A stretch of 64,000 bases of DNA from positions 51,518 to 115,517 of the forward strand of contig JBBDIJ010000002.1 in NCBI GenBank assembly GCA_040880485.1, in the 5' to 3' direction. Each line of letters starts with the position of its first letter. Within the stretch, counting starts at the first letter, position 1. Shown here piece by piece: positions 33,755 through 48,500 of the stretch. Source of the DNA: Balneolaceae bacterium. GTDB taxonomy: Bacteria > Bacteroidota > Rhodothermia > Balneolales > Balneolaceae. The notes under the pieces were generated by a model. It searched no databases. It was not told the origin of the DNA and worked only from the letters and a program-made list of their open reading frames with translations. The translations under genes were made by a program, and so were the position numbers.

Positions 33755-33804
33755 CGTCCCGCTGCTTAGTTGAATTTATAAATCTAACCTGATTATAGAA
33801 GAAG

Positions 33805-34788: not shown

Positions 34789-34895
34789 GAGCCGGGTGTT
34801 ACCTCTTTGTGGATGTTTGAGTACCTTCCCGTTGGGTGCATTAAACACCGGCGCTGAATCGATTCATATTTACTGAACCTTAATCGGACTGGACT

Positions 34896-36143
34896 ATGGC
34901 TGTAAAAATTGAGATGCCCAAACTGAGCGATACAATGGAGGAGGGGGTGATCGCAAAATGGAACGTGAAGGAGGGAGATCAGGTGCATTCCGGAGATGTG
35001 ATCGCCGAGGTGGAGACCGACAAGGCGACCATGGAGGTTGAGGTTTTTGACGACGGTCAGGTTTTGAAGATCCTGGCCGGGGAGGGAGATGCAATTCCCC
35101 TTGGCGGTGGCATTGCCATTATAGGTGAAGAGGGAGAAGATATCAGCGACTTGCTGGAACAGAATGGAGAGAAAGCCGATAAAGAACCGGCTCCGGAGAA
35201 GAAGAAAAAGAAGTCAGATAGTCCTGCTTCTGAAACAAAGAATAAACAGGACTCAAAGGGTACGAAAGAGAAGGATTCAACCGAGCCGTCTTCTAAGGAG
35301 AACGGACGGCTTAAGGCCTCACCGCTGGCTAAAAAGATGGCCGAGGAGCGGGGAATTGATCTGAACCGGGTAGAGGGAAGTGGCCCGGAGGGGAGAGTGG
35401 TACGGAAAGATATTGAAGAGTTTAAAGAGAGTGCCGGCAGGTCTGCTGCCACATTTGAACCCGCAGAGAGTGAAGAAATTCGTGTCTCTCAGATGCGCAA
35501 GACCATCGCACGGCGCCTCTCCGAGAGTAAGTTCGGAAGCCCGCACTTTTATGAAACGGTAGATATCGATATGAGTTCGGCTGTGGAGGCGAGGGACCGG
35601 ATCAATGAGGTGAGCGATGTGAAGATCAGCTTTAACGACATCGTTGTGAAAGCGTGTGCTGCCGCTCTGAGGCGACATCCCGATATCAACAGCTCCTGGA
35701 AGGGGGATACCATCCTTCAGCATGGCGACGTGCATGTGGCCGTCGCTGTTGCTGTAGAAGAGGGGTTGATGACTCCGGTGATACGACATACAGATCAGAA
35801 AAACCTGCGGCAGATCTCTGCAGAGACGCGTGAACTTGCGGGACTGGCCAGAGACCGGAAACTTTCACCTGAGCAGATGGAGGATAGCACCTTTACCATC
35901 AGCAACCTGGGGATGTTCGGAATTGAAGAGTTTACGGCGATTATCAACCCGCCCAACGCCGCTATACTGGCTATTGGGGCGATCCGGGATGTACCGGTCG
36001 TAAAGGGAGGCGAAGTGGTTCCCGGCAAGCGAATGAAAGTTACGCTCTCCAGTGATCACCGTATCGTGGATGGAGCGAAAGCCGCCCGGTTTTTGAATAC
36101 TCTGCAACAGATGCTGGAGAACCCGCTATCGATGCTTTTCTGA
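34896..36143 (+). CDS. pdhC: dihydrolipoamide acetyltransferase E2
   Basis: Lipoyl-lysine motif VETDKATMEVE, Lys/Glu/Ser linker, E3-binding domain (ASPLAKKMAEERGIDL), catalytic SSDHRIVDGA. Confidence 0.9.
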   Translation: MAVKIEMPKLSDTMEEGVIAKWNVKEGDQVHSGDVIAEVETDKATMEVEVFDDGQVLKILAGEGDAIPLGGGIAIIGEEGEDISDLLEQNGEKADKEPAPEKKKKKSDSPASETKNKQDSKGTKEKDSTEPSSKENGRLKASPLAKKMAEERGIDLNRVEGSGPEGRVVRKDIEEFKESAGRSAATFEPAESEEIRVSQMRKTIARRLSESKFGSPHFYETVDIDMSSAVEARDRINEVSDVKISFNDIVVKACAAALRRHPDINSSWKGDTILQHGDVHVAVAVAVEEGLMTPVIRHTDQKNLRQISAETRELAGLARDRKLSPEQMEDSTFTISNLGMFGIEEFTAIINPPNAAILAIGAIRDVPVVKGGEVVPGKRMKVTLSSDHRIVDGAKAARFLNTLQQMLENPLSMLF

Positions 36144-36462: not shown

Positions 36463-36897
36463 ATGAAAATTCAAAGAAATTACCGTTTTGCTGCTGCCGC
36501 CATTCTGGTTGCCATGCTTTCGCACCTCTCCGTGGTACAGGCACAAAACTCGGTACAGGCTGTCATGCAGGTATCGGTAGAAGTTGTGTCCGGTGCAACG
36601 ATCCTGAGCAGTTTTAACGAAGACATTTCTGAGCAACTCTATTCGAACGAATCCAGCCAGATCCATTTTGGAGAGTACACGATTACAGTACCGAAAGGGG
36701 CAGAGTTCGCCGCAACAACCGAGAGAGAGGTAAGAATGGATGGCCACGCGGGTTCATTCACTATTCAATCCAAAATGGCTGGCAAGAGCGGTACGGACGG
36801 CAGCGTTACCTTCGAAATCAGTGGCTCCGCCAACGGGTCAGATCTTGCAGCAGGTCATTACAGCGGACGTCAGATTGCCACAGTCGTCTATTATTGA
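36463..36897 (+). CDS. secreted DUF4402/spore-coat-U-like fimbrial-subunit-like protein (orphan, convergent)
   Basis: Signal peptide ending VQAQ. AGGAGG lies 8 nt before the ATG. The mature part begins with alternating hydrophobics (VQAVMQVSVEVV) and the protein ends GHYSGRQIATVVYY. That is the G-x-Y-x-G...Y C-terminal pattern I associate with DUF4402. Confidence 0.5.
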   Translation: MKIQRNYRFAAAAILVAMLSHLSVVQAQNSVQAVMQVSVEVVSGATILSSFNEDISEQLYSNESSQIHFGEYTITVPKGAEFAATTEREVRMDGHAGSFTIQSKMAGKSGTDGSVTFEISGSANGSDLAAGHYSGRQIATVVYY

Positions 36898-39551
36898 CCC
36901 GCGGGCTCTGACTGAGTTTCGGGTACCACACTAATCTCGAGCCCCTCTACAAAGTCGCCTTCGGGCAGGGCACGTACCTTAAATTGAAGCCGGTCGGGGT
37001 TCGAACGTGCATTCAGGAAGGTGAGCTGCGCAGGGTCGATGGCCAGTTCATACTCTCCCGGCGGAATCTCATAGGCGTAAAAACTGCCGTCGGAGTAGGT
37101 ACGTAACTCTTCAGAATAGGGTTCTGCCCCATCTCCGGCATCCGTCTGGTTCAAAAAGAGACGGACACCCGGCAGCGGGTTCCTTCCCTCCTCCGTGTAG
37201 ATAAAAATACGGCCGTCCACGACACCGGACATATAGAGCGGTACATCGATCTGTTTATACTGGTTGGGATCGGTCACCAGGGAGAATTGATCGAATTGCG
37301 GCACGTGCATAGGGTTCAGAAGTGCCCCCTTGTTCACCGACAAGTTATACTGCCGGTAGGGCTGAAGCTGTGTGATGTAGGTGACCCCGTCTTTCTGCGA
37401 GATTACACCGCCACCTCTCTCAATTCTTACGGCGTTTCCGGGCTGTAGCTCGTCGCCATCGTCGTAAGTACCGTTATTGTTGTTGTCCACGTACATGCGA
37501 ATGGCCAGGGCCGACCGGCCGACCTGCTGGCGGTTGGAGGTCAAAAACTGGCCGTTATTAGAGTCGTATCCCAATGAGCCCCGAAGGCTCTGTGTGAACA
37601 CGGTATTGCCCGCTGTGCTCCGAAGATTGGAGTTGGATCGAACGGAACTGAAGTCGAATGTGAGGCCAAACCGCAAGTAGGTAAAGCCTCCGATGAAGTT
37701 TCGTCCCAGGGCGGCCTGAAAACGGCCCCGGTCAAATAGGCTCCGCCCTGCATGGATCTCCAGGTCTTCCAGGCTGTTTCGCGCCGGAGCATAGGTCATC
37801 TGCCCTCTCAGGTAGAGGCCGCGTAAAACGGGATGAACCTCACGGCTTCTCGAAAAACTGTAGGAGCCCGATCCCTGTATCCGTGAGGAGGTAGTAGGGC
37901 TGATTCCGAATGCACCGGTCTGGGTATCGCGGTAACTCATACGGACATTCATCCGCCCCAATCTGCTGTTGAGCTCTATGCGATATCGCGTGGTATTCAC
38001 CGAAACCCGGTTGTCGTGCGTAAGGGTGAGTCTCAGGAAAAGCGGGAATGAATCGGAGAGTGGTATTGGAGTAAAGATAGCCGATTGGATTCGGCTTCGG
38101 CTCCGCCCCGTATTGTAGATACCTCCGAGCTCGGAGAAGTGTGTATAGTCCAGCTGAAAACTTGCCGAAGAGGGGTAGATAACACTACTGTTCAGGCGGT
38201 AAAATCGTGCAGGTGCGGCCTCTACTGTAACCAGATAGTTGGTCATCAGCCTGGCAGAGAGTGCCGTACTGATGGTGGGAAGTTCGTCATGATACGCACT
38301 GAAATACTCTACATTGGCCCGGCCGGTCAGCCAGTTGGTGAAACCCGTGGTCACGGTGCCGTGTCCCATCCAGCTTCTCAGAGAAGTTCCCGGAAGGGGG
38401 GTGTCCATGCGTCCTGCATTCAGAGAGTAGTTTACCTCGCCGGGTGGAAGAAAGTTGAACGGGATCTGCAAACGAGCCTGACGTTCACTCATCTGGCCTG
38501 AGGCCCCATAGGTGCGTACGGTATATTGTGAAATGCCGTATGTGAGAGGCACCCGAAACTGATAGTACCCGTCTTCACTGGTCATTTGATAGTCGATCAG
38601 AGTGTTGTTGCGATAGATTTCAATTTCGGAGGAGGGGGCGGCCGTTCCGGTAAAGAGGTAGTCGTCATAGATGTATCGGGGTTCAATCGGGTCATTGGTG
38701 ATCTGAATCCCGGTGTAGGCTGCCGGCAACAGCCCGTCGGAGGTGCTTTGGCCTGCAGTAATCCGGCTCACCCACTCATTATCCCGAATTCCATAACGCC
38801 AGCGCAGGTTGCTGGAGCGCAGTGTGGAGGCGCTTTGTGAAAAATTACCAAAGAGGCTACCCTGGAGGTCCCCTCCCATCACTTCCGATCCGATACTGCC
38901 TGAGAAGAGATAGCTTGAATTGGTTTGGGAGATATTAGCCGATAGACTGTAGTCCAGGAATCCCGTGTTGAACCGGTTTTGCTGCCGGTCGAATCGCAGT
39001 GGGTAGTACTCCATGTAGATCTGCTGCTGCCGTCGGGTCAGCTGTTCGCGGCGCAGCTCCCGGTTTCGTCGTGCAACCACTGGCATAGTATCGTCAGACT
39101 CAAGAATAAGGCCCAGTGTGTTGAAATCGGGGATAAAGCGGAGCCCGAACAGCTCTTCAAACAGGTCCGGGTGAAGGTAGTAGTCGAGCTGCTCTATCAG
39201 AAAGTCGTTAGCCTCGAACTCAATACGTACGTCGCCCAGTGTGGCGGTGCGGCTATTGAAGTCGATGCGGTAGCGCCCGCGGTCCAGATACTCTCCCGTG
39301 ATCTGCAACCGGCCGTTCCTCACTTCGTAATCGATCTGCAGCAAGCTGAACACCTCTGTGACCGGGATGTAGAACTCCTCGCCGGTATAGAAGGAAGAGA
39401 TGTAGCTGTTTATGACTCCTGCATGGCGGAAATGGAGGAAAACTTCATCGGTATCCGCTACCTGCGCAGAGGCGTTATTTACCGGTCCCCACGCGAGAAA
39501 GAGGATGGCAACAAAGAGAACCCGGTGTATGGTTCTGCGAGGGGCATTCAC
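36891..39551 (-). CDS. usher-like outer-membrane assembly protein with atypical C-terminal beta-sandwich domains
   Basis: GTG start overlaps the chaperone stop (GTGA), and a signal peptide is present. TGTAAPSSEIEIYRNNTLIDYQMTSEDGYYQFRVPLTYGISQYTVRTYGASGQMSERQARLQIPF resembles the conserved usher plug/middle signature. A long Ser/Arg/Tyr-rich alternating-strand region looks barrel-like. The C-terminus has DNNNNGTYDDGDE (SdrD-B/Cna-B-like) and a carboxypeptidase-regulatory-like segment (TYSDGSFYAYEIPPGEYEL). Confidence 0.5.
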   Translation of the reverse strand: MNAPRRTIHRVLFVAILFLAWGPVNNASAQVADTDEVFLHFRHAGVINSYISSFYTGEEFYIPVTEVFSLLQIDYEVRNGRLQITGEYLDRGRYRIDFNSRTATLGDVRIEFEANDFLIEQLDYYLHPDLFEELFGLRFIPDFNTLGLILESDDTMPVVARRNRELRREQLTRRQQQIYMEYYPLRFDRQQNRFNTGFLDYSLSANISQTNSSYLFSGSIGSEVMGGDLQGSLFGNFSQSASTLRSSNLRWRYGIRDNEWVSRITAGQSTSDGLLPAAYTGIQITNDPIEPRYIYDDYLFTGTAAPSSEIEIYRNNTLIDYQMTSEDGYYQFRVPLTYGISQYTVRTYGASGQMSERQARLQIPFNFLPPGEVNYSLNAGRMDTPLPGTSLRSWMGHGTVTTGFTNWLTGRANVEYFSAYHDELPTISTALSARLMTNYLVTVEAAPARFYRLNSSVIYPSSASFQLDYTHFSELGGIYNTGRSRSRIQSAIFTPIPLSDSFPLFLRLTLTHDNRVSVNTTRYRIELNSRLGRMNVRMSYRDTQTGAFGISPTTSSRIQGSGSYSFSRSREVHPVLRGLYLRGQMTYAPARNSLEDLEIHAGRSLFDRGRFQAALGRNFIGGFTYLRFGLTFDFSSVRSNSNLRSTAGNTVFTQSLRGSLGYDSNNGQFLTSNRQQVGRSALAIRMYVDNNNNGTYDDGDELQPGNAVRIERGGGVISQKDGVTYITQLQPYRQYNLSVNKGALLNPMHVPQFDQFSLVTDPNQYKQIDVPLYMSGVVDGRIFIYTEEGRNPLPGVRLFLNQTDAGDGAEPYSEELRTYSDGSFYAYEIPPGEYELAIDPAQLTFLNARSNPDRLQFKVRALPEGDFVEGLEISVVPETQSEPAGQ

Positions 39552-40378
39552 TCAATTTCAAACGTTGTCGAGTGTGAAACCGGCGGCATCTGAATCAGGT
39601 TTCTTGATGAGATATCGCTTCTGGACGATTCAAATGTCACTTCAGCTCTGTAGGTTCCGGCTCCCAGGTCAGTAGCCTGGAATTCGCTTCGGTGATGGTT
39701 GCGGAAATAGACGGAAGTGGAGCTGTTCTGCTCCTGAACAAGCTGGTCGTTGCTGTTGTAGATGCGCACCGTTGCACTCCCCAGAAAGGGGGCGGAACCG
39801 GTTCTCTCCACATCGGTAAATATCATCAGCTGGTCGTTGTTCGTTTCGGCGCTCACGCTGTGGATCTGAAGGCCGGTGTTCGGACTTCCGACTTCAAGTA
39901 GTACGGCTGTAATCTGGTCGACCTGAAATGCCACCCTTGCGGTGACCCCTTCCGTCTCTTCTCCGATCGGTGGGGTTACCATGTTGGAGGAGACTCTCAT
40001 CCGGGTCCAGTAGATACCATCCTCCAGGTTTCCGGGGGGACGTCCCACGAGGCGAACGGTCTGTCGTTGTCCGGGTTGCAGCACAAAGGTAGTGGGGAAG
40101 GCTCGGAGCCACTCCTGCAGGGAGTACCGCTCTTCTGCCTCCCCGTCGTCGTAGTTGAGGGTCACATTGCCGTTCTCGTCGGTTTGCGGATAGGCGAATT
40201 CGAAGGAGAGGCGCACCTCGACCGGCTCATTAGCCGGATTGGAGACATAGAAGGAGCCGACGCCGGAGCTCTTTTCGAGAAAAACGGCGGTAGGAGAAAT
40301 AGTGACCTGAGCCAGTGCAGTGCCTGCGGAGAGAAGAAGAAGCACTATTCCGGAGAGAAGTAGTCGTTTGGGTTTCAT
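39548..40378 (-). CDS. PapD-like periplasmic fimbrial chaperone
   Basis: Signal peptide ending ALAQ. VTISPTAVFL...FYVSNPANEPVEVRL...FPTTFVLQPGQRQTVRLV parallels the PapD N-domain pattern (IxPTRxI, LxVxN, PPxxxLxPGxxQxVR). The length fits two Ig-like domains. Confidence 0.5.
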   Translation of the reverse strand: MKPKRLLLSGIVLLLLSAGTALAQVTISPTAVFLEKSSGVGSFYVSNPANEPVEVRLSFEFAYPQTDENGNVTLNYDDGEAEERYSLQEWLRAFPTTFVLQPGQRQTVRLVGRPPGNLEDGIYWTRMRVSSNMVTPPIGEETEGVTARVAFQVDQITAVLLEVGSPNTGLQIHSVSAETNNDQLMIFTDVERTGSAPFLGSATVRIYNSNDQLVQEQNSSTSVYFRNHHRSEFQATDLGAGTYRAEVTFESSRSDISSRNLIQMPPVSHSTTFEIE

Positions 40379-40455
40379 GGGTTCGTTTCGTGAATGTCTT
40401 GCCCTGCCTGACGGTTGGAAAAGTCTGTAAAAAATGAGCTACCGCAATTATAATC

Positions 40456-40490
40456 AAAAAAAAGGCTCCATGAAATGAAGCCTTTTTTTT
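40456..40490 (-). terminator. hairpin terminator/attenuator between the major-subunit gene and the chaperone gene
   Basis: A8-GGCTCCA-TGAAA-TGAAGCC-T8: a 7-bp stem with one mismatch, flanked by an A8 and a T8 run. It lies in the 137-nt gap after the stop at 40516. Confidence 0.55.
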
Positions 40491-40515
40491 CTGATTTTCC
40501 GTACGTTCTATCGGT

Positions 40516-41031
40516 TTAGATACCAGTGTATTGAACCGTTATAGTCAGGTTCGACCCGTTCGTGTTGGTGGTGCTGTAATCTCCCGCTACAGTAGCTGCG
40601 TCCAATGCTCCACCAACCGTGAATACCAGAGGGCCAGTTGAAAGATCGAAATCGGTTCCAGCCGGCAGTACCTCGGTGTTGCCGCTATTTTCGAAGATGG
40701 AGGGAGTAAAGGTCAGGGTGTTGGTACCGTCACCATCGGCCAGTGTGGCTGTTCCGAAGGATATGGCGGCATTTGCATCTCCGGCAACTGTAAAAGCACC
40801 GGTCTGAGCGTTCTCCCCGACATTTTCATCGGGGTCGTCGCTCGCGTTGGCGTTCAGATAGGCGCCGCTATTCTGAGAGATGGTTCCGAAATTAACGTTT
40901 GTAATGTCGGAGAACGTAATAGCAGCCTGAACGTCTGCCGCTACCTCGATATCCTGAGTGGATTGAGCCTGTGCCTGTACAGTAAATACGATGGCGATTA
41001 CCAGGATCGGGGCAATGATTAATTTATTCAT
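40516..41031 (-). CDS. DUF4402-like secreted protein, candidate major filament subunit
   Basis: The ATG at 41031 gives MNKLIIAPILVIAIVFTVQAQAQ (signal peptide). The mature protein is Ala/Thr/Gly/Asn-rich with NVNFGTI, GAFTVAGD and a C-terminal GDYSTT...LTITVQYTGI. It has its own upstream region and downstream terminator. Confidence 0.6.
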   Translation of the reverse strand: MNKLIIAPILVIAIVFTVQAQAQSTQDIEVAADVQAAITFSDITNVNFGTISQNSGAYLNANASDDPDENVGENAQTGAFTVAGDANAAISFGTATLADGDGTNTLTFTPSIFENSGNTEVLPAGTDFDLSTGPLVFTVGGALDAATVAGDYSTTNTNGSNLTITVQYTGI

Positions 41032-41098
41032 GGTCTGTAGGATTGGTTGCGCGTTTAAAATCTTCAATGAAAGTTTATTGCTATTTTCGGTGCCGCCC

Positions 41099-41116
41099 AA
41101 GTTAGAAGCCTTTAAT
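41099..41116. promoter_or_regulatory. proximal copy of an 18-nt repeat AAGTTAGAAGCYTTTAAT upstream of the major-subunit gene
   Basis: AAGTTAGAAGCCTTTAAT, with one mismatch to the copy at 41209-41226. It contains the dyad-like TTAGAAGCCTTTAA. Confidence 0.4.
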
Positions 41117-41208
41117 TAACAAGCTCTAATGTCAGTAGCTTTCCGTTTTTAACCCATGCATTTTTTTCTGTAGATATAGAGATGATATCAGGTTCCCTGC
41201 CCAATCCA

Positions 41209-41226
41209 AAGTTAGAAGCTTTTAAT
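41209..41226. promoter_or_regulatory. distal copy of the 18-nt repeat; its minus-strand reading contains TAACTTTG
   Basis: AAGTTAGAAGCTTTTAAT, one substitution away from the perfect palindrome TTAGAAGCTTCTAA. The reverse complement of 41207-41214 is TAACTTTG, which matches the Bacteroidetes -7 consensus TAnnTTTG. Confidence 0.4.
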
Positions 41227-41261
41227 ATATACGATGCATGAGGGTGAGTAGAAAAGTGGAC

Positions 41262-41798
41262 TCAATCGTAGAGGATGTCGAGTACAATCTCTCCGGAGTA
41301 GGTTGCATTCGGGATATTGCCGACCTCTACTTCACCATAGAGATAGAGGAATACAGAGGACCAGTTCTGCCCCGGTGCGTTGGGAGGGGGCTGAATGGTA
41401 ACATCCTCCGTTGGGAGTGTGAAGGGGCGAGCCAGCCTGTAATCATTCACGCCGAAATCGACCAGAGCCGCCTCCATCCGGATAGGTATGGTGGCCGTAA
41501 TCGCCGGGTCGGTGGCGGTCAGCCTCTCGGGAAGGTTCAGCGTGAAGTGCAATCGCTGGCCTGTGAGGCCATTGATTCCGAATACGCCCATGCCCATATC
41601 TCCGAGTTCAACCCGGCTTATACCATTGCCAGCCACGACGCTCCCGAAGGAGAGGTTGCTCTCTACAGTGGCATTGACCTCCGAGGGGACCTCAATCTCT
41701 ACGGTCAGGAACTGGCCACTGAGTTGAGGGGGTACCCAGAGGGAGAGCAGTAGTGTGAGAATGGGTACCGGGAGGGTGTGTGTCACCTTCCTACACAT
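41262..41798 (-). CDS. DUF4402-like secreted protein (minor subunit candidate)
   Basis: Signal peptide ending LSGQ. SNLSFGSVV and C-terminal ATYSGEIVLDILYD. 8-nt overlap with the upstream gene. Confidence 0.5.
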   Translation of the reverse strand: MCRKVTHTLPVPILTLLLSLWVPPQLSGQFLTVEIEVPSEVNATVESNLSFGSVVAGNGISRVELGDMGMGVFGINGLTGQRLHFTLNLPERLTATDPAITATIPIRMEAALVDFGVNDYRLARPFTLPTEDVTIQPPPNAPGQNWSSVFLYLYGEVEVGNIPNATYSGEIVLDILYD

Positions 41799-42399
41799 CG
41801 GCCTGTTCGTAATAGATGGTTACCGTAATGGTGCCCTGGTAGTATCCGGCGTCCACATTTCCGACGTCGATGGTTCCGTAGAGGTAGAGGTATGCGTTCT
41901 CGTTCACCAGGCTCTGATCGAAATCAAGCGTTGGAGGGGGTGGGGGAGGCCCGGGAGCGTTTTGCAGCCGTCCCAGTATGGGGAATCGGGCGTTTGAAAA
42001 GTTGTTGACGACCGGAATGTACTGGGAGTCGCCCAGGTTGTTCTCTCCTCTGTTGGCATAAGCTGCCTGCAAGTTGAAAGGGATGCTGCAGGAGGGGTCT
42101 CCGCTGCAGGCGGCATTCCCTTCGAGAAGGAGCTCTCCGTCTGCCTCTATCTGAACAAAGGCATCCAGATAGTTTACACCTGTGACCATCAGGGCTTTCG
42201 CCTGGGGCAGTTCCACTTCATAGAGGCCGCCACCAGTTACAATGGGCCCTTCAAAGACCAGGTCATCCAGAGAGAGCTGGTCGAGTGTGATGGTATAGCT
42301 CTCATACTGGCTGAAAGAGAGCTCCTGCCCGAATCCGCTCTTTGCCACAAAAACAAGCATCAGAGAAGCGGCAAGGATATGTTTGCAGAAGTGCCTCAT
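41791..42399 (-). CDS. DUF4402-like secreted protein with Cys pair and poly-proline insert
   Basis: Signal peptide ending GFGQ. C-terminal GYYQGTITVTIYYEQADV, plus CSGDPSC and APGPPPPPPT inserts. The track start at 42402 is TTG. I use the adjacent ATG at 42399, which shares one nt with the upstream stop. Confidence 0.45.
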   Translation of the reverse strand: MRHFCKHILAASLMLVFVAKSGFGQELSFSQYESYTITLDQLSLDDLVFEGPIVTGGGLYEVELPQAKALMVTGVNYLDAFVQIEADGELLLEGNAACSGDPSCSIPFNLQAAYANRGENNLGDSQYIPVVNNFSNARFPILGRLQNAPGPPPPPPTLDFDQSLVNENAYLYLYGTIDVGNVDAGYYQGTITVTIYYEQADV

Positions 42400-42977
42400 C
42401 AATTGTACTCCACTTCCAATGTAAACTCCCCTTCATAGGCTCCGGTGGTGGCGTCTTCCAGATTGACGAGCCCTCCGATCCAGAGGTAGAATTGGCCTTC
42501 TTCGTTAAACTGATACTCCCGGCTGTCCGGCTCCAAAACCTCCGCCGTGTCCTGTTCGTCGAGATAATTTCCAGCTACATCGAACCGGATGCCAAGAAGG
42601 CCGGTGCGCTCGATGTTTACCATTTCCCGATTGCGCAGCCAGGTGACCTGAAACGAGGAACCAGGTGATCCCTGGGCCACCATCTTTCCCGCCCTGGGGC
42701 TCAGAACCGGGTCTATATTCAGCTCCCTCTGATCTGCTTGCAATTCACTGAAATCCATACCCTGTAGCGTGACCACTTCAAGCGACTGCAATACGCTGGC
42801 ACTCACCTGAATGGTAATGATCTCCTGCTTTCTGTCCTCGCTCTGGGCGGCCAGTTTTGAGGGAAACAGAAAGGCCGGAACAAGACAAAGAAACCATGCC
42901 ACAGGAAGCAAATTATGCAAACTCACTTGTATCCCGACGGAGAGAAGAACCGGCTTTATTTTGTTGCGAAAATTCAT
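42399..42977 (-). CDS. DUF4402-like secreted protein (minor subunit candidate)
   Basis: C-terminus GAYEGEFTLEVEYN matches the GxYxGxFxVxVxYN ending I recall for DUF4402 proteins. Long N-terminal signal/anchor ending KLAAQ. The track start at 42992 is TTG, so I prefer the ATG at 42977. Confidence 0.5.
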   Translation of the reverse strand: MNFRNKIKPVLLSVGIQVSLHNLLPVAWFLCLVPAFLFPSKLAAQSEDRKQEIITIQVSASVLQSLEVVTLQGMDFSELQADQRELNIDPVLSPRAGKMVAQGSPGSSFQVTWLRNREMVNIERTGLLGIRFDVAGNYLDEQDTAEVLEPDSREYQFNEEGQFYLWIGGLVNLEDATTGAYEGEFTLEVEYN

Positions 42978-43058
42978 GCCCAAAGATCGCAAGAAGCAGA
43001 CGCGTCCCCTAATTAAGCTTTTTTAACACGAACCCTGATCGGCTACAGTGAAGCCACC

Positions 43059-44111
43059 CTACTCATAGATACTTGTGGCCGTGTATTTGCGGCCGGCGCC
43101 GTTTACGTTGGCTGATGCTTTTTTTGCATACTCTATGGCCTGGCAGTCGTACTGAATGTTCACGTTACCGCTAATACCGACATCCATAGTTCCTATATCA
43201 TTTGTATTACCGATCAGCATCGAACCGTTAATACTGGGGGTCCCCTTGGCAGAGAGGGAGAAGGCGTTTTCGAAGATCACCAGGCCGTTGAATGTAAAGT
43301 TCCCTCCCAGATCCAGCTCACCTTCCATCTCCAGCTCTCCGTTGGTCCGGATTACCAGGATACCATATCCCTCACTGGCACCACCCTTTAGTTGGGTAGA
43401 GGAGGTGACAAAGAAGACACCGGGATTATCGGCAGAGCCAAGAGGTTCATTCACGTTACCTCCGAGAAACTGTGCCCCAGGTTGCTCCTCCAGCCTTTGA
43501 ATCATTTCTGTGACATCATCGAAGTTGAGAGCAGGGTCGACCTCGATTGCGGGATCTCCATCAATCTGGCTGGCATATCCCTCCACTTTATCTTCGCCTT
43601 CGGCGCTCTGTACCGCTACACCGGGCCCATCTTCACAAGTCATGCTGGCGTCATTGCCGCTAATGGATGCAGAAGCTCCGTCTATGCCGAAGGTAAAATC
43701 GTCGGTAGCGATACCGATCGCCCCATTGAAATCCGGTAAGAAGTGCAACTCCTGAAGTTGATAGGTGACGTTGATCGACTGTTCCTGGTCGCCCACGGTA
43801 CCTGTAGCACGGAGGCGGTAGGTTACGTCATCTTCGTCGGCCGGGTCGGCGCAGTAGATAAACTGCACGATGGCGGTTCCCTCATCCAGCGCGTAGGTCA
43901 GGCTGCCGTCCTGGGTGCACACTGTCTCGTCCTGCATCATCTGGTGAATCGTGAGCTCCAGGGCAGAGTGTGCGATATTAGAGGATTGGGTGCGTTCAGC
44001 GTATCCGGTACTGTGCCGGGAAAGGCCCAGAACCGTGTCCTGAAGGCCCGATTGTGTGATTCCGACGGAGAGAAGCACGCCGGATACGATAATGAGCATG
44101 GCACGTCCCAT
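43059..44111 (-). CDS. PilX-N-like pseudopilin-like protein with beta-helix-like C-terminal part
   Basis: N-terminus MGRAMLIIVSGVLLSVGITQSG followed by NIAHSALELTIHQM resembles the PilX N-terminal domain. The C-terminal GYGILVIRTNGELEMEGELDLGGNFTFNGLVIFENAFSLSAKGTPSINGSMLIG resembles the repetitive end of PilX-like proteins. Confidence 0.45.
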   Translation of the reverse strand: MGRAMLIIVSGVLLSVGITQSGLQDTVLGLSRHSTGYAERTQSSNIAHSALELTIHQMMQDETVCTQDGSLTYALDEGTAIVQFIYCADPADEDDVTYRLRATGTVGDQEQSINVTYQLQELHFLPDFNGAIGIATDDFTFGIDGASASISGNDASMTCEDGPGVAVQSAEGEDKVEGYASQIDGDPAIEVDPALNFDDVTEMIQRLEEQPGAQFLGGNVNEPLGSADNPGVFFVTSSTQLKGGASEGYGILVIRTNGELEMEGELDLGGNFTFNGLVIFENAFSLSAKGTPSINGSMLIGNTNDIGTMDVGISGNVNIQYDCQAIEYAKKASANVNGAGRKYTATSIYE

Positions 44112-44171
44112 ATCAGCTCCATTTCATTTTCAGGTTATAGGTCATTTCATTCTTCACGGCTGGAACCGGTT

Positions 44172-44825
44172 TTAGAGGTCCAGGTTGGGCGGTACAATGG
44201 TTTTTCGCCATTGGGAGGCGGGAAACCGCACCTCCCCGCCCGGCATACCCACCCCTTCCCGGGGCTGGGTCTCTACAAATATTTCGATCCGTCGTATTTC
44301 ACTCATGTCAGATGCGGCTATCGGGAACGTCATTGGAGTATTGCTGCCAGCAGTATAGTACTGCAGTTCAAAACGTGTAACCCCAATTCCGATGTTGGTA
44401 ACTTCGTCCGTGGTGGCCCCGGTCACAATGCTGCCACCCGGGGTGTCAATCACCATATTACTGGAGACGATTCGCTGGAGAATTCGGTGATCCGGGTTTC
44501 CGCTTCCGGGAACCATCTGGTCGGTGTAACCCCACATGACAATCGGAGGATTTCCGGCAAGGACCGGATCGGCTTCTACGTTGGCTTCAAATGCGATGGT
44601 GTCGGGTGTGGCCAGAAAAATTGGAGAAGAGATTGCTCCATCGATATCATAACCGGCTTTCTGGAAGTCGAATAGAAGCATCTCGTAAACCGCTTCTATA
44701 TGGGTTTTGGACATCTCATGAAGTGCAAGGTCGGAGGAGTGCTGGCCCAGACGCAGATTGAGTGTGGCGATCATCAGGATCAGCACACCTGAAATGATAA
44801 AGCTCATTGAGAGTCCGAGGTTCAT
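44172..44825 (-). CDS. PilW/GspJ-like pseudopilin-like protein
   Basis: Single N-terminal hydrophobic helix (MSFIISGVLILMIATLNL). LLFDFQKAGYD and VTRFELQYYTAG...IRRIEIFVETQ resemble minor-pilin beta-sheet signatures. There is no GFTLIE motif. Confidence 0.35.
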   Translation of the reverse strand: MNLGLSMSFIISGVLILMIATLNLRLGQHSSDLALHEMSKTHIEAVYEMLLFDFQKAGYDIDGAISSPIFLATPDTIAFEANVEADPVLAGNPPIVMWGYTDQMVPGSGNPDHRILQRIVSSNMVIDTPGGSIVTGATTDEVTNIGIGVTRFELQYYTAGSNTPMTFPIAASDMSEIRRIEIFVETQPREGVGMPGGEVRFPASQWRKTIVPPNLDL

Positions 44826-44837
44826 ACCTTTACTTCC

Positions 44838-45356
44838 TCAGTCGTGATTGTAGGTTCGTACATAGGCCACCCGAACAGGATTGGTCAGAGAGGGGTTGGT
44901 TACCGTGACCACCATTCGTTTATGCCGGGTACGTATAGTGGTGGGAGTGGCCGGATCGTCCTCCGTAACATAGTGTACCTCTGCTGAAATCTCATACGGG
45001 CCCAGGTTGGTATCCATCACCTCTTCCCAGCCGTGGTACCCTTCATATGAAGCTATATCGCTGCGGTTGCCTGCCGTCGTATGGGGGAAATTGGGGGCGG
45101 CAAACTCTTCGGGCATCTGAATCGGAATGTGTCCATCTACTGTAACACTGTCGAAGGGACGCAGGAGGGCCTCCTCAATCAGATCCTGGCCCAGAGTGAC
45201 CGCCAGCATCTCCACTTCCGACGCCACCTGCTGTTGGGTGTTGGAGAGCATATAGCGATTGGTGGATAGAAGAATGATCGAGAAAATCACCATCGCCCCC
45301 ACCACCTGTATCACTTCTGCGTATCCGTTCATATCATTTCCGTTATGAGCTGTCAT
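44838..45356 (-). CDS. PilV-like pseudopilin-like protein
   Basis: N-terminus MTAHNGNDMNG-YAEVIQVVGAMVIFSIILL: a Gly followed by a hydrophobic helix, with Glu at +3 rather than the canonical +5. Small globular C-terminal part. Confidence 0.35.
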   Translation of the reverse strand: MTAHNGNDMNGYAEVIQVVGAMVIFSIILLSTNRYMLSNTQQQVASEVEMLAVTLGQDLIEEALLRPFDSVTVDGHIPIQMPEEFAAPNFPHTTAGNRSDIASYEGYHGWEEVMDTNLGPYEISAEVHYVTEDDPATPTTIRTRHKRMVVTVTNPSLTNPVRVAYVRTYNHD

Positions 45357-45509: not shown

Positions 45510-48500
45510 CTATTCAATACGAGTCATCTTTCGGTTTAATACCCCTTCCGAAGTCACCAGGCGAACAAAATAGACTCCGCTGGCGATCGACCCTCCGTTC
45601 CACGGCAGTTCATAGTATCCCGCCTCCTGCCGTCCGCGGAGCACGGTCTGAACCCTGCGTCCCAGAATATCGTAGATCTCGATGCGGACATCGGTTTCCA
45701 CCGGCAGGCCATAACGAAGTGTGGTTGATCCGGCAAAAGGGTTTGGATAGTTGCTCTGTAACACCAGGTGATCAGGTATTCCGGCCGCGTCGGCTCCAGG
45801 GTCTATCACCATGACAAAACGGGCCTCACTACGCAGGCCGGTAATCTTGCGAACCAGACTGAATGAACCGGGACGATTCACGTGCGGTTTGGCAGCCCCT
45901 GCCGATGAGAGCGTAAAATCGTACCAGCTGTTCTGCCTCATATCCACTTCGCCTCCGGTATTGCGGTCAATTAGCCGGAGCGACCACTCCTGCGGGAGAT
46001 TTTCAAGTTCCGGCCAGGAGAGGGTGGCTTCTCCCTCCATCCAGTTGCCGTTACGAACCCCACCCACCTGAATCGGAATTTCTATGGTTCGGCCAAACCG
46101 GCGCGGCAAGTTGCGGATCGCCAGTTCGGTGCCGTCATCCAGAAGAGAGTAGACCTCTACCCAGGTATCGGTTCCAAACGGGAGGAGGCGGTAGGCATCC
46201 TGGTCGTCCAGCTTGTTGCTGCCCCCCTCCGTGAAGGAGAAGTGCGTGGATTGGGAGAGTCCGTCTGATGTGAGCTCGAGTGCAATCACGGGTGGACTCT
46301 CCGGCTCTGCGGATTCGCGATAGAAAGTTCCGCCTGTGGTTTTAGAGACTTTGCGAACCCGGAGGGAAGGAGCCCCGTTTCCGTTTGCCTTGACCCAGAA
46401 TCCCTGGAAAGGGGCAATTTTACCCGACCCGAGCGAGCCAGCCGACCCGTTCCATGTGAGATATTGGCCGCTTGTTTCGTCCCACACGTAGATCGTGTTG
46501 TTCATGTTCGTTTTTTGCCAGGTTCCGTCGTCCCAGTCGATGGCAGCAGCGAAGGGGTTGGCCACCAGGTTCCAGCCCGTGTCGGCCACGGCAGTGTACG
46601 TAACCGGAAGGGCGACCTCGGTTCCGTTTCCGTCATGCTCCTCTCCGGTCACCTCCAGTGTTTGAGGCAGCGGGTCGTTGTAGCGATTGTCTTCCGGGAT
46701 ATCCCCGAAAAAATATACGAAGTAGCCGCGACCTGGTGTGACCGTGTCTGAGGCATCGGCAGGTGCCCTCCAGCGCTGATTGTCGGTCCCCGGGTGAGAC
46801 TCCTGATACCAGAGTACGTTCGGTTGCAGTGTGTCGCTCTCCGTATCGTAGAGGTCGGCACCGGGATAGCCCTGTGTGAGGGTTCCACCCAGAAGGTCAG
46901 AGACGCTGGATATGATCGGGCTGCCGAGCAGTCTCCAACCCCGATTTCCTGATATCTCCCTCTGCATCCGGAGGTTTTCCGTAGTGCCTGATTTGTTGTT
47001 GGCCACCAGGCTATAGCCAGATGGGATATCCAGTAGCCCATTCTGCAGTGTGAGTGTGCCGTTCACCACCAGGTCGTTGTTAAATGTGACCGATACACCG
47101 TTGTTGATAGTGAGGTTATGGATCGGGCTGAACCCGCTCACTTCCTGCGCAGCGGTTCCGTTGAACTCAACATCGGTGTCGGTGAGCAGAATGTTTGAAG
47201 TGGTTGCATCGATGCTGCCTCCAAATCGAAAGGTAGATCCGTTTCCGGATAGGTTACCGTCAATAGTGATCTGGTCAATCATGACCAGTTCGGATCCCGT
47301 TTCATTATTCAACGTCTGTCCGGTGTTGACGCTCAGGTTCAATGAGGCCTCCAGATAACCCTCGTTCACAACATCACTCTGAATAAAAATCTGATCTCCT
47401 ACAAGGTTGGTCGAGTCGGAAATCGTCAGACCTCCTGCCCGCTCCAGATAGATATCAGAGGTACCAGCTGTAATGTTTTTGATATTAATCGGGCCAAATA
47501 GCTCAACTGTCGCTTCGTCGGCAATTAGCGTCCCGCTTCCTGAAATCTCCTGGTGGATCGTCAAAAGACGTCCGGAGTTGAGATTGATGGTTGCATCCTG
47601 GTGGATCACCAGAAAGTCGATCTCGACATCCAGCTCATCAATGAGCGGAAAGTTTTGACTTTCAGCCGGATTGGTCGGAATGATGACTACCTGGCCTGTA
47701 GTTGGAACTCCAAGTTCCCAGTTTCCTGCCTGCTCCCAGATTCGACTATTTGCGGGGTTCCCTCCGGCGCTGGTCCATGTGTTGAACTGTGTAACGCTGA
47801 TCACTGCGTCGTTGGTGATGGCACTGCTGTTGACGGTTCCAGTAACGGTCACCGACTCCATTGCCATACCAGCGGTCAGGGTGGCGGTGTAGATCCCACC
47901 CCCCTGATTGGTAACGGCAGAGAGTGAGCTGTTGCTGCCACCGTCGTCCAGGGTCACGGTGTCGTCTCCCTGGGTTCGAAGGTTTCCAAAGGCGTCCCGA
48001 ACTTCAACGGTGATGGTGGTGTTGTCTGTCCCGTCGTTCTGGAGGAAGGAGGTGGCTGGGGTGATGGTGGTTGTGGCGGTACTGGCCGGACCGGCGACGA
48101 CGGTGAACAATTCACTGGTTCCGCTCTCCGAAAAGCCCGATCGTCTTGCGGAGATCGAAAAATTGCCGGCGGAAGAGAGTGTAACACTGTGGGTGTTCAG
48201 AACACCCTCTGTGAAGGTAGCAGTGGTGCCGCTGCCGGACGAGATGGTTCCGCTTGAAGTGATGACCGTGGTAGCTCCGCTACCATCAAACGACTCCACA
48301 ATGTTGTCAAAAGCGTCGAGAGCAGTGATCCGTATCGGAAAGATCACACCTGCGGTCTGCTCTCCAATGGTCCCGCCTGTTTCCGCCTCCACCAGAAAGG
48401 TGGTGAGGGCGCCAAAGGTAAAGTTGACCAGCACATTTCCGGAAGTGATTGTCTGGCTGTTTACACTGGCGCCAATCTCGAAATTTCCTACCTCACCGGG

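What the first reader, a model, noticed from the sequence alone, without database searches (positions are those of the whole stretch)
36463..42977. Chaperone-usher-like pathway built on five DUF4402/spore-coat-U-like subunits in a T9SS-bearing lineage
Five small secreted paralogues (144-203 aa) each have a signal peptide. Each mature N-terminus is an alternating-hydrophobic strand (for example DIEVAADVQAAITF, VQAVMQVSVEVV, FLTVEIEVPSEV). They are encoded with a PapD-like two-domain periplasmic protein and an 886-aa usher-like protein whose start overlaps the chaperone stop. This resembles the archaic (sigma/Csu-type) chaperone-usher pili, whose subunits belong to the spore-coat-U fold. In my knowledge, archaic CU systems are described mainly in Proteobacteria and a few other phyla. 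Bacteroidota-type organisms are instead known for sortase-like type V pili and T9SS. A CU-like fibre made of DUF4402 proteins in this lineage would therefore give DUF4402 a function and extend the CU pathway's distribution.
Basis: partly seen in the sequence, partly recalled or inferred. Interest (0 to 1): 0.8.

Follow-up and report, generated by a model that had tools for sequence, protein, structure and literature searches.

The report
Divergent chaperone-usher pilus operon in Balneolaceae
This Balneolaceae locus encodes a very divergent chaperone-usher pilus machine whose fibre subunits are DUF4402 proteins, which suggests a role for that uncharacterised family and puts this pilus pathway in the Bacteroidota-related bacteria, where the literature I could search does not report it.

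Summary

- **Usher.** The 886-aa protein models confidently (pLDDT 84.6) as an usher: N-terminal domain, 24-strand barrel with a plug between strands 6 and 7, and two C-terminal domains. Its 19 best PDB matches are all FimD or PapC (E 1e-28 to 1e-9).
- **Chaperone.** The 276-aa protein models (pLDDT 89.5) as a two-Ig-domain PapD-like chaperone. It carries the superfamily's invariant proline and the arginine typical of non-classical chaperones.
- **Subunits.** The five small secreted proteins are paralogues. All end in a conserved beta-strand with a penultimate Tyr. Their orthologues match Pfam DUF4402. Three classes align end to end with spore-coat-U (Csu-type) pilins, and in the two alignments I inspected the N-terminal strand sits in register with the mapped CsuA/B donor strand.
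- **Distribution.** The operon is found in at least 346 species genomes; the 80 retrieved are nearly all Balneolales (a few MAGs carry other labels), and a Rhodonellum (Cytophagales) relative exists.
- **Placement.** It is nearest the archaic class but much further from it than archaic is from classical. The subunits lack the archaic cysteine pair, and there is no CsuE-like tip adhesin gene.

Donor-strand exchange itself is inferred, not shown. Verdict: a new variant of a known kind, of moderately high interest.

The parts
36891..39551 (-). Outer-membrane usher, 886 aa with a signal peptide. Predicted domains: N-terminal domain 35-152, linker helix 157-175, barrel strands 1-6 at 194-285, plug at 296-363, barrel strands 7-24 at 373-663, and C-terminal domains at about 680-877.
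   Evidence: AF2 model has pLDDT 84.6. The 19 best Foldseek PDB hits are all FimD or PapC, E 1e-28 to 1e-9. Six of 40 family members hit Pfam Usher, best E 3.2e-11. Orthologue P0025 passes the Pfam gathering score, 33.7 against 27.1 bits. hhalign against archaic ushers gives 94.9%, E 4.3e-8 over 496 columns.
39548..40378 (-). Periplasmic PapD-like chaperone, 276 aa, two Ig-like domains. Its stop overlaps the usher start by 4 nt.
   Evidence: AF2 model has pLDDT 89.5. Foldseek hits include EcpB, CfaA, SafB, PapD, Caf1M, CupB2 and CsuC at E 1e-8 to 1e-6 across both domains. Eight of 31 orthologues hit PapD_N. P95 aligns with CsuC Pro59 and R126 with CsuC Arg89. Some sources name orthologues 'fimbrial biogenesis chaperone' or 'PapD'.
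40456..40490 (-). Terminator-like hairpin plus T-run between the variable subunit gene and the chaperone gene. Candidate attenuator that would set the ratio of major subunit to machinery.
   Evidence: Found (16-pair stem). An equivalent hairpin lies within 200 nt upstream of the chaperone gene in 46 of 62 related loci, against 3 of 248 control windows, with differing sequences.
40516..41031 (-). Hypervariable DUF4402/SCPU-like subunit, 171 aa (the ORF extends to 41100). Candidate major shaft pilin.
   Evidence: Only 2 hits in the 5.8-billion-protein search. The slot is occupied by a 160-215-aa ORF in 58 of 61 loci, most carrying the same kind of C-terminal strand (50 of 61 loci by the strict pattern), often with no BLAST similarity to the window's protein. 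Eleven of 27 detectable orthologues hit DUF4402. hhalign against SCPU is 96.1% untrimmed and 38.8% (P 3e-4, 132 columns) with signal peptides removed.
41099..41222 (-). Two copies of AA(A/G)GCTTCTAACTT, 110 nt apart, in the 230-nt spacer upstream of the variable subunit gene. Each contains a TAnnTT(T/G)G-like box. Candidate promoter or operator; function not tested.
   Evidence: Sequence read. These are the only two matches in the 64-kb window, against 0.01 expected.
41262..41798 (-). Conserved minor subunit, 178 aa, DUF4402/SCPU-like.
   Evidence: Orthologues in 61 loci. Paralogous to the 203-aa class (99.7%) and the 197-aa class (98.5%). Trimmed hhalign against SCPU gives 88.1%, P 3e-6, end to end. 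Penultimate aromatic residue in 57 of 63.
41791..42402 (-). Conserved minor subunit, 203 aa, with a Cys-x6-Cys loop and a poly-Pro insertion. Overlaps both neighbouring genes.
   Evidence: Orthologues in 61 loci. Paralogy shown. Twenty-eight of 82 members of the combined 178-aa and 203-aa classes hit DUF4402. Only the C-terminal strand aligns with SCPU.
42399..42992 (-). Conserved subunit, 197-aa ORF (192 aa from the ATG at 42977). The clearest DUF4402 member.
   Evidence: Sixty of 61 orthologues hit DUF4402, best E 1.9e-9. Penultimate Tyr in 60 of 61. Trimmed hhalign against SCPU gives 64.5%, P 6e-5, end to end, with I11/V13/A15/V17 aligned to CsuA/B V6/V8/L10/I12.
36463..36897 (+). Fifth small secreted paralogue, 144 aa, convergent with the usher gene. 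Orphan subunit, role unknown.
   Evidence: Signal peptide, N-terminal strand and C-terminal G-x-Y-x-G...Y-x motif are present. Orthologues sit at the same position in 15 loci. Links to the other classes are weak: 94% to the 197-aa class over the C-terminal 35 columns only, and DUF4402 at E 0.009.
43059..45356 (-). Three membrane-anchored, pseudopilin-like genes immediately upstream on the same strand: p350 at 43059-44111, p217 at 44172-44825 and p172 at 44838-45356 (likely start 45332). Whether they belong to the system is uncertain.
   Evidence: Syntenic in about 30 loci. N-termini resemble prepilins, for example M-x-G-Y-S-E-V-L-Q followed by a hydrophobic helix. Only sporadic hits to DUF4900, HpsC and PilV. 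Unrelated to the subunits. Absent from the Cytophagales-type loci.
45510..50537 (-). 1675-aa Invasin_D3/Big_1-repeat protein with a T9SS C-terminal sorting domain, upstream on the same strand. Whether it belongs to the system is uncertain.
   Evidence: Pfam hits. Homologues are found in 31 of the retrieved loci, upstream of the operon in those inspected. A different large secreted protein, with Por_Secre_tail or Ice_binding, also directly precedes the operon in the distant loci L083-L085.

Best explanation
The locus encodes a working chaperone-usher (CU) pathway of a very divergent type.

**Proposed mechanism**
1. Sec exports the five small DUF4402-type subunits to the periplasm.
2. The 276-aa PapD-like chaperone captures each subunit. 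It supplies a beta-strand to the subunit's incomplete Ig-like fold and holds the subunit's C-terminal carboxylate through the conserved F1-strand arginine (R126).
3. Chaperone-subunit complexes dock on the 886-aa usher, a 24-strand plugged barrel in the outer membrane.
4. At the usher, the N-terminal alternating strand of the incoming subunit replaces the chaperone strand (donor-strand exchange), and the growing fibre is threaded out.

**Proposed roles**
- The hypervariable gene next to the chaperone (171 aa) is the abundant shaft pilin. A conserved hairpin after it would attenuate read-through into the chaperone and usher genes.
- The three conserved upstream subunits (197, 203 and 178 aa) and the convergent 144-aa gene would be minor, adaptor, tip or terminator subunits.

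**Shown versus inferred**
- Shown here: usher fold and topology, chaperone fold and signature residues, paralogy of the subunits, their DUF4402 identity, remote similarity to SCPU pilins, and operon conservation.
- Inferred: donor-strand complementation and exchange, fibre formation, and which subunit is major.
For: - **Usher.** AF2 pLDDT is 84.6, with 6 + 18 barrel strands and a 6-strand plug inserted after strand 6. The top 19 PDB fold hits are FimD or PapC only. Pfam Usher hits occur in orthologues.
- **Chaperone.** AF2 pLDDT is 89.5. Two-domain matches to most known CU chaperones. P95 and R126 align with CsuC Pro59 and Arg89, residues described as the superfamily-invariant proline and the non-classical carboxylate anchor in PMC4654587.
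- **Subunits.**
  - Mutual homology at 91-99.7% by hhalign.
  - DUF4402 hits in 60/61, 11/27 and 28/82 orthologues.
  - The C-terminal strand ends one residue after a conserved aromatic in 60/61, 49/61, 57/63, 18/27 and 13/16.
  - The 178-, 197- and 171-aa classes align end to end with SCPU pilins at P 3e-6 to 3e-4. Negative controls score 0.1-0.4% probability. The known SCPU-versus-classical pilin pair scores 47.8%.
  - The N-terminal I/V/A/V residues align with CsuA/B V6/V8/L10/I12. Mutating V8, L10 and I12 abolishes polymerisation.
- **Operon logic.** Overlapping genes. Conserved order in most of 80 loci. Conserved attenuator-like hairpin in 46/62 loci against 3/248 controls.
Against: - No subunit structure or chaperone-subunit complex was modelled, so the missing strand and groove are not demonstrated.
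- Sequence links to known CU classes are weak once signal peptides are removed: chaperone against archaic 60.8% (P 8e-5) and subunits 39-88%.
- The window's own proteins fall below every Pfam threshold.
- The subunits lack the Cys16-Cys62 pair conserved in archaic pilins, and there is no two-domain tip adhesin gene.
- The chaperone model's single best fold hit is a Gram-positive WxLIP protein, not a CU chaperone.
- The CsuC domain-2 anchor Arg174 has no conserved counterpart.
- There is no expression or imaging evidence.
Confidence: 0.75

Rival explanations
1. The same CU machinery does not build a discrete pilus. Instead it assembles an amorphous or very thin surface polymer or coat, comparable to the Caf1 capsule of Yersinia or the spore-coat-U layer of Myxococcus (this comparison is from my own knowledge).
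For: The subunits are SCPU-like. There is no two-domain adhesin gene. The putative major subunit is hypervariable, like an exposed coat antigen.
Against: Four to five distinct, conserved subunit classes in fixed order are more typical of a composite fibre with tip and adaptor subunits than of a homopolymeric coat. Nothing here tells the two morphologies apart.
Confidence: 0.12
2. The usher-like barrel and PapD-like protein export or display DUF4402 proteins as monomers or non-covalent assemblies, without donor-strand exchange. In that case the N-terminal strand is simply the first strand of a complete fold.
For: The incomplete fold was not tested. Similarity to SCPU pilins is only remote. The Cys pair is absent.
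Against: The N-terminal strand aligns in register with the experimentally defined CsuA/B donor strand in two classes independently. The strictly fixed C-terminus fits carboxylate anchoring by the chaperone arginine. As far as I know, no usher acts on non-polymerising cargo.
Confidence: 0.08
3. The 276-aa protein is a WxLIP-like cell-surface or peptidoglycan-binding protein rather than a chaperone, and the cluster is not a CU system.
For: WxLIP is the top Foldseek hit at E 6.7e-10. Three of 31 orthologues hit Pfam WxLIP_PGBD weakly.
Against: - Most other top hits are CU chaperones covering both domains.
- The CU signature Pro and Arg are conserved and aligned.
- The gene is translationally coupled to a bona fide usher.
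- WxL loci belong to Gram-positive bacteria (my knowledge).
Confidence: 0.03
4. The small proteins are Bacteroidota type V (FimA/Mfa-like) pilins or T9SS cargo, and their position next to the usher is coincidental.
For: The lineage has T9SS substrates: the neighbouring 1675-aa protein carries Por_Secre_tail.
Against: - No lipobox cysteine follows the signal peptides.
- There is no Por_Secre_tail, FimA or Mfa Pfam hit in any subunit class.
- Their family is DUF4402 with SCPU-like remote similarity.
Confidence: 0.02

Closest known systems
Archaic (sigma) chaperone-usher pili: Csu of Acinetobacter baumannii, CupE of Pseudomonas aeruginosa
   Same: - Several small subunit genes followed by a chaperone gene and an usher gene with overlapping ends.
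- Of the known classes, the usher and chaperone profiles are closest to archaic: usher 94.9% (E 4e-8), chaperone 60.8-92.6%.
- The chaperone has the superfamily proline and the non-classical F1 arginine.
- Subunits align end to end with SCPU pilins, including the donor strand and a C-terminal motif of the form G-x-Y-x-(D/G)-hydrophobic-x-hydrophobic-x-hydrophobic-x-(F/Y).
   Different: - Subunits match Pfam DUF4402, not SCPU.
- No Cys16-Cys62 equivalent.
- No CsuE-type two-domain adhesin gene after the usher.
- The putative major subunit sits last, not first, among the subunit genes.
- The distance to archaic (usher E 4e-8) is far greater than archaic to classical (E 9e-38).
- Most orthologous ushers carry a C-terminal SPOR or TPR extension.
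- The host phyla are Balneolota and Bacteroidota, not the Proteobacteria, Cyanobacteria and Deinococcota listed in PMC4654587 and PMC10104325.
Classical chaperone-usher pili (Fim, Pap of E. coli)
   Same: - Same usher architecture, with FimD and PapC as the best structural matches.
- Two-domain chaperone.
- Penultimate Tyr at the pilin C-terminus, and Gly 14 residues from the end in two of the window's five subunits.
- A terminator after the major pilin gene, as after papA (my knowledge).
   Different: - Profile similarity is weak: usher 25%, chaperone 0.6-6%, pilins 0.6-10%.
- No conserved basic residue in chaperone strand A1, where classical chaperones have Arg8 (PapD numbering).
Alternative CU pili (ECP, CFA/I)
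   Same: EcpB and CfaA are the best-ranked CU chaperones in the fold search. The invariant proline aligns with EcpB Pro60.
   Different: No significant profile match to EcpB, EcpE or EcpC. The subunit family is different.
Pfam DUF4402 (PF14352)
   Same: Orthologues of four subunit classes match it. The 197-aa class does so in 60 of 61 members.
   Different: The family has no assigned function and no paper in the searched library mentions it. The window's own copies score below its gathering threshold.

Membership tests
Chaperone-usher pathway (superfamily) | Outer-membrane usher: 24-strand beta-barrel with a plug domain inserted between strands 6 and 7, a periplasmic N-terminal domain and C-terminal domains | tested here: met
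   AF2 model topology. The 19 top PDB fold hits are FimD or PapC, E 1e-28 to 1e-9. Pfam Usher hits occur in orthologues.
Chaperone-usher pathway (superfamily) | Periplasmic two-Ig-domain PapD-like chaperone with the invariant proline kinking strand D1 | tested here: met
   AF2 model and Foldseek hits. The invariant P95 lies between strands 91-94 and 97-100 and aligns with CsuC Pro59 and EcpB Pro60.
Chaperone-usher pathway (superfamily) | Subunits with an incomplete Ig-like fold completed by a donated strand (donor-strand complementation and exchange) | not tested
   Both structure-prediction jobs went to the usher and chaperone, and complexes cannot be modelled with these tools. Indirect support only: the N-terminal strand is in register with the CsuA/B donor strand, and the C-terminus is fixed.
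Archaic (sigma) CU class | Usher and chaperone group with sigma-class members | tested here: inconclusive
   Archaic is the nearest known class. However, it is much more distant than archaic is from classical (usher E 4e-8 against 9e-38). No phylogenetic tree was built.
Archaic (sigma) CU class | Subunits belong to the spore-coat-U family (Pfam SCPU, PF05229) | tested here: not met
   No SCPU Pfam hit in any class; the hits are to DUF4402. Only remote profile-profile similarity to SCPU, P 3e-6 to 3e-4.
Archaic (sigma) CU class | Conserved cysteine pair in the pilin domain (Cys16-Cys62 of CsuA/B) | tested here: not met
   The mature 144-, 171-, 178- and 197-aa proteins contain no cysteine. Cys16 aligns with Leu or Ile. 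The 203-aa protein has an unrelated C-x6-C loop.
Archaic (sigma) CU class | Non-classical chaperone signature: conserved Arg in strand F1 that anchors the subunit carboxylate | tested here: met
   R126 is conserved in at least 90% of orthologues and aligns with CsuC Arg89. The feature is defined in PMC4654587. The domain-2 partner Arg174 has no conserved counterpart, and Tyr196 lies beyond the aligned region.
Archaic (sigma) CU class | Two-domain tip adhesin gene (CsuE-like, about 330 aa) downstream of the usher gene | tested here: not met
   All seven intact archaic reference loci have this gene. Here the usher gene is followed by a convergent 144-aa gene.
Classical CU class | Chaperone with a conserved basic pair (Arg8 and Lys112 in PapD) and Fimbrial-family pilins | tested here: not met
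   No conserved basic residue in strand A1. hhalign against classical chaperones gives 0.6-6% and against classical pilins 0.6-10%.
Pfam DUF4402 | Match to PF14352 | tested here: met
   This holds for the orthologue classes: 60/61, 11/27 and 28/82 at E <= 0.01, best 1.9e-9. The window's own copies are sub-threshold, and the 144-aa class barely matches (1/16).
Type V (FimA/Mfa) pili of Bacteroidota | Lipoprotein pilin precursors (lipobox Cys) and FimA/Mfa folds | tested here: not met
   The subunits have type I signal peptides with no Cys after the cleavage site. No FimA or Mfa Pfam hits.

The most novel reading that the evidence does not exclude
This is a previously unrecognised, deep-branching fourth class of the chaperone-usher pathway, native to the Balneolota/Bacteroidota lineage.

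- Its pilins are the DUF4402 family.
- Its ushers are usually tethered to peptidoglycan or to partner proteins through C-terminal SPOR or TPR modules.
- Its operon is functionally tied to the large T9SS-secreted adhesin encoded just upstream, and in Balneolaceae also to three pseudopilin-like proteins. That would link two otherwise separate surface-assembly routes.
Probability: 0.3. Interest if true: 0.75.

Novelty: new variant of a known kind. Interest (0 to 1): 0.6.

Why it matters
- It would give DUF4402, a domain of unknown function, a concrete role as a pilin.
- It would move the chaperone-usher pathway into the Bacteroidota-related phyla. Reviews describe their fimbriae as type V and their surface proteins as T9SS-dependent, and they do not list these phyla among CU hosts.
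- The clade is large: about 2,200 usher clusters at 50% identity score E <= 1e-30. It is mostly annotated as 'hypothetical', 'SPOR domain-containing protein' or even 'FtsN', so many genomes are probably mis-annotated.
- Because it is so distant from all three known classes, it could help root CU evolution and test which features of donor-strand exchange are universal.
- Ushers fused to SPOR or TPR modules would be an unusual link between pilus assembly and the cell wall.

Tried and rejected
- **Single-sequence searches of the window's proteins gave nothing usable.** Pfam and NCBIfam hits were all sub-threshold. Searches of PDB sequences with the usher and chaperone, singly and as profiles, found nothing relevant. 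The 197-aa class profile found no PDB relative.
- **hhalign against single sequences found nothing convincing.** This covers subunit profiles against CsuA/B alone and usher or chaperone profiles against FimC, FimD, EcpB or EcpC alone. Small reference profiles built from 7 archaic plasmid loci and 4 E. coli operons were needed.
- **My first profile-profile scores were inflated by signal peptides.** After trimming, the subunit-SCPU probabilities fell from 94-96% to 39-88%, and the chaperone-archaic probability fell from 92.6% to 60.8%. I report the trimmed values as the honest ones.
- **The encoding-contig look-up of the Rhodonellum usher failed.** I used its 63-65% identical relatives instead.
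- **The three upstream genes are not further subunits.** p172, p217 and p350 show no profile similarity to the subunits.
- **Their synteny is not evidence of function.** The pyruvate dehydrogenase genes on the other side are equally syntenic.
- **Horizontal transfer is unlikely.** GC content is uniform across the window and the locus is syntenic across the family.

Full report
**1. What is there**

The window comes from a Balneolaceae metagenome-assembled genome. The usher and chaperone are 100% identical to NCBI proteins WD529_02250 and WD529_02255, and the phylum is Balneolota, in the FCB group.

Ten genes sit on the minus strand with short gaps or overlaps:

| Coordinates | Product |
|---|---|
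| 45510-50537 | 1675-aa repeat protein |
| 44838-45356, 44172-44825, 43059-44111 | three membrane-anchored proteins (p172, p217, p350) |
| 42399-42992, 41791-42402, 41262-41798, 40516-41031 | four small secreted proteins (197, 203, 178 and 171 aa) |
| 39548-40378 | 276-aa protein |
| 36891-39551 | 886-aa protein |

A fifth small secreted protein (144 aa, 36463-36897) is encoded on the plus strand. It converges on the 886-aa gene and overlaps its stop by 7 nt.

**2. The 886-aa protein is an usher**

- On its own the protein matches nothing above threshold.
- It has a large family. There are 135 word-index hits. A full HMM scan of 1.84 billion representatives finds 2,187 clusters at E <= 1e-30 and 5,198 at E <= 1e-3.
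- Six of 40 diverse members hit Pfam Usher, best E 3.2e-11. The 52%-identical orthologue P0025 passes the curated cut-off.
- An AlphaFold2 model built on the 40-sequence alignment has mean pLDDT 84.6. Its strand map is an N-terminal domain (35-152), a helix, six barrel strands (194-285), a six-strand sandwich (296-363), eighteen more barrel strands (373-663) and C-terminal beta domains (about 680-877).
- That gives 24 barrel strands with the plug between strands 6 and 7. This is the PapC/FimD topology (established knowledge).
- Foldseek against the PDB returns FimD and PapC as all of the top 19 hits, E 1e-28 to 1e-9, over 500-950 aligned columns. LptD and porins follow only at about 1e-6.

**3. 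The 276-aa protein is a PapD-like chaperone**

- Eight of 31 orthologues hit PapD_N, best E 1e-5. Some sources already call orthologues 'fimbrial biogenesis chaperone' or 'P pilus assembly chaperone PapD'.
- The AF2 model (pLDDT 89.5) has two beta-sandwich domains.
- Foldseek gives two-domain matches at E 1e-8 to 1e-6 to EcpB, CfaA, SafB, PapD, Caf1M, CupB2, CsuC, DraB and FimC. The single best hit is an enterococcal WxLIP protein at E 6.7e-10.
- In a profile alignment to seven archaic chaperones, the invariant P95 aligns with CsuC Pro59. P95 lies at the break between strands 91-94 and 97-100.
- In the same alignment the nearly invariant R126 aligns with CsuC Arg89.
- PMC4654587 describes these as the only residue invariant across all CU chaperones, and the carboxylate-anchoring arginine characteristic of archaic and alternative chaperones.
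- No conserved basic residue occupies strand A1, where classical chaperones carry Arg8.
- The CsuC domain-2 anchor Arg174 has no conserved counterpart, and Tyr196 lies beyond the aligned region.

**4. The small proteins are paralogous DUF4402/SCPU-like subunits**

I collected orthologues from 80 related loci.

*Paralogy (profile-profile)*

| Pair | Probability |
|---|---|
| 171 to 197 | 99.3% |
| 178 to 203 | 99.7% |
| 178 to 197 | 98.5% |
| 203 to 197 | 96.1% |
| 144-aa class to the others | 87-94%, over short stretches only |

The three upstream membrane proteins are unrelated to the subunits.

*Pfam DUF4402 hits in orthologues*

| Class | Members hitting DUF4402 |
|---|---|
| 197 aa | 60 of 61 |
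| 171 aa | 11 of 27 |
| 178 + 203 aa | 28 of 82 |
| 144 aa | 1 of 16 |

*C-terminus.* Every class ends in an alternating strand with a penultimate aromatic residue, usually Tyr: 60/61, 49/61, 57/63, 18/27 and 13/16. It is preceded by G-x-Y-x-G. A penultimate Tyr with Gly at position -14 is the classical pilin C-terminal signature (my knowledge). A fixed C-terminus is what carboxylate anchoring by the chaperone requires.

*N- and C-terminal conservation.* The first strand after the signal peptide and the last strand are among the best-conserved segments.

*Comparison with SCPU pilins.* I used a profile of 15 SCPU pilins from archaic operons, with signal peptides removed.

| Class | Probability | P | Extent |
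|---|---|---|---|
| 178 aa | 88.1% | 3e-6 | end to end |
| 197 aa | 64.5% | 6e-5 | end to end |
| 171 aa | 38.8% | 3e-4 | end to end |

For comparison, the known SCPU-versus-classical pilin pair scores 47.8%. Unrelated controls score 0.1-0.4%, and these subunits against classical pilins score 0.6-10%.

*Donor strand.* In both the 197-aa and 171-aa alignments the N-terminal I/V/A/V residues pair with CsuA/B V6/V8/L10/I12. Replacing the first 12 residues of CsuA/B abolishes its polymerisation, and alanine substitutions of V8, L10 and I12 were used to confirm that this segment is the donor strand.

*Differences from archaic pilins.* CsuA/B Cys16 aligns with Leu or Ile, and the mature subunits have no cysteine pair. 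No PDB sequence relative exists.

**5. Operon logic and distribution**

- The order 197-203-178-[variable subunit]-chaperone-usher recurs in most of the 80 loci retrieved. These span Rhodohalobacter, Gracilimonas, Balneola, Fodinibius/Aliifodinibius and Halalkalibaculum, and 346 species genomes had a relative.
- The slot next to the chaperone holds a 160-215-aa ORF in 58 of 61 loci. Most carry the same kind of C-terminal strand, but often with no BLAST similarity to the window's 171-aa protein. That protein has only two database relatives.
- A hairpin plus T-run follows this gene in the window (40456-40490). An equivalent one occurs in 46 of 62 loci against 3 of 248 control windows, with different sequences.
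- Hypervariability plus an attenuator-like terminator is the pattern of a major pilin gene such as papA (my knowledge). I therefore propose the 171-aa protein as the shaft subunit. This is an inference.
- A Rhodonellum (Cytophagales, Bacteroidota) usher is 33% identical to the window's. Loci of its 63-65% identical relatives show three small genes, a DUF4402 gene, a 276-289-aa gene and an 881-883-aa usher gene. The system therefore also occurs in Bacteroidota proper.

**6. Placement among known classes**

I built small reference profiles from seven archaic operons on plasmids, four classical E. coli K-12 operons, and Ecp.

| Comparison | Result |
|---|---|
| This usher vs archaic | 94.9%, E 4e-8, 496 columns |
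| This usher vs classical | 25% |
| This usher vs Ecp | no match |
| This chaperone vs archaic | 60.8% trimmed (92.6% untrimmed) |
| This chaperone vs classical or Ecp | under 1% trimmed (4-6% untrimmed) |
| Archaic vs classical ushers | 99.9%, E 9e-38 |
| Archaic vs classical chaperones | 96.9%, E 1.5e-10 |

The system is therefore nearest the archaic class but lies well outside the archaic-classical spread. The reference profiles are shallow, so this is a distance argument and not a phylogeny.

Further differences from archaic systems:
- The subunits match DUF4402 rather than SCPU.
- There is no Cys pair.
- There is no CsuE-type adhesin gene, whereas one follows the usher gene in all seven intact archaic reference loci.
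- The putative major subunit sits last among the subunit genes.
- Most orthologous ushers are 1,100-1,500 aa, with a SPOR domain about 110 residues after the last usher domain, or with TPR repeats. The window's usher lacks this extension.

**7. Literature**

- PMC4654587 and PMC10104325 list archaic CU systems in alpha- to delta-Proteobacteria, Cyanobacteria and Deinococcus-Thermus. They restrict classical and alternative systems to beta- and gamma-Proteobacteria.
- No paper in the searchable library mentions DUF4402.
- No held paper connects CU pili with Bacteroidota or Balneolaceae.
- The library is incomplete, so this is absence in what I could search, not proof of absence.

**8. Verdict**

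- The locus is a genuine, conserved and highly divergent chaperone-usher system with DUF4402 subunits.
- The machinery (usher and chaperone) is demonstrated at the level of confident structure prediction and signature residues.
- Donor-strand exchange and fibre formation are inferred from homology, sequence pattern and context.
- It is a new variant of a known kind, not a new kind of system.
- Interest is moderately high, for three reasons. It suggests a function for a DUF. It extends CU pili to a superphylum thought to rely on type V pili and T9SS. It also reveals a large clade that is annotated as hypothetical, SPOR-domain or 'FtsN' proteins.

Noticed in passing
window 43059-45356 (-): Three conserved membrane-anchored proteins (350, 217 and 172 aa) lie between the T9SS protein and the pilus subunit genes. 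Their N-termini look like prepilins or pseudopilins, for example M-x-G-Y-S-E-V-L-Q followed by a hydrophobic helix, or MGRAMLII... as in PilX. Database support is limited to sporadic hits to DUF4900, HpsC and PilV. In locus L033 the trio sits downstream of the usher gene instead, and some loci carry duplicates.
   Followed up: partly
window 45510-50537 (-); L083 1-4761; L084 1575-4853: A very large secreted protein directly precedes the operon on the same strand. In the window it has Invasin_D3/Big_1 repeats plus a T9SS Por_Secre_tail. In the distant Cytophagales-type loci it is a 3018-aa Por_Secre_tail protein or a 1092-aa Ice_binding protein. This may be a functional link between a T9SS adhesin and the CU fibre, or it may be coincidence.
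   Followed up: partly
homologues P0002-P0049 etc.; for example P0013 residues 992-1054: Most orthologous ushers are 1,100-1,500 aa. They carry a SPOR (peptidoglycan-binding) domain after the last usher domain, followed by about 400 unannotated residues. Others (P0090) carry TPR repeats instead. Databases name them 'SPOR domain-containing protein' or 'cell division protein FtsN'. The window's usher lacks the extension.
   Followed up: partly
window 41099-41112 and 41209-41222 (-): A 14-nt direct repeat, AA(A/G)GCTTCTAACTT, occurs only twice in the window. Both copies lie in the spacer upstream of the hypervariable subunit gene, and each contains a box that resembles the TAnnTTTG -7 promoter element of Bacteroidota.
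   Followed up: partly
L012 11617-13130; L016 11674-13190: Two related loci carry a second variable subunit gene plus a second chaperone gene downstream of the usher gene, before the convergent 144-aa gene.
   Followed up: no
window 40516-41031 (-): The database holds two versions of the putative major subunit from two Balneolaceae MAGs. One is 100% identical to the window's (WDZ29_00615) and the other 96% identical (WD529_02260). The window's usher and chaperone match the WD529 records at 100%. This hints at faster change in the major subunit even between very close strains.
   Followed up: no
window 32654-36143 (+): Pyruvate dehydrogenase E1-alpha, E1-beta and E2 genes flank the locus. They are as syntenic across Balneolaceae as the pilus genes, so conserved neighbourhood alone is not evidence of functional linkage in this region.
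   Followed up: yes
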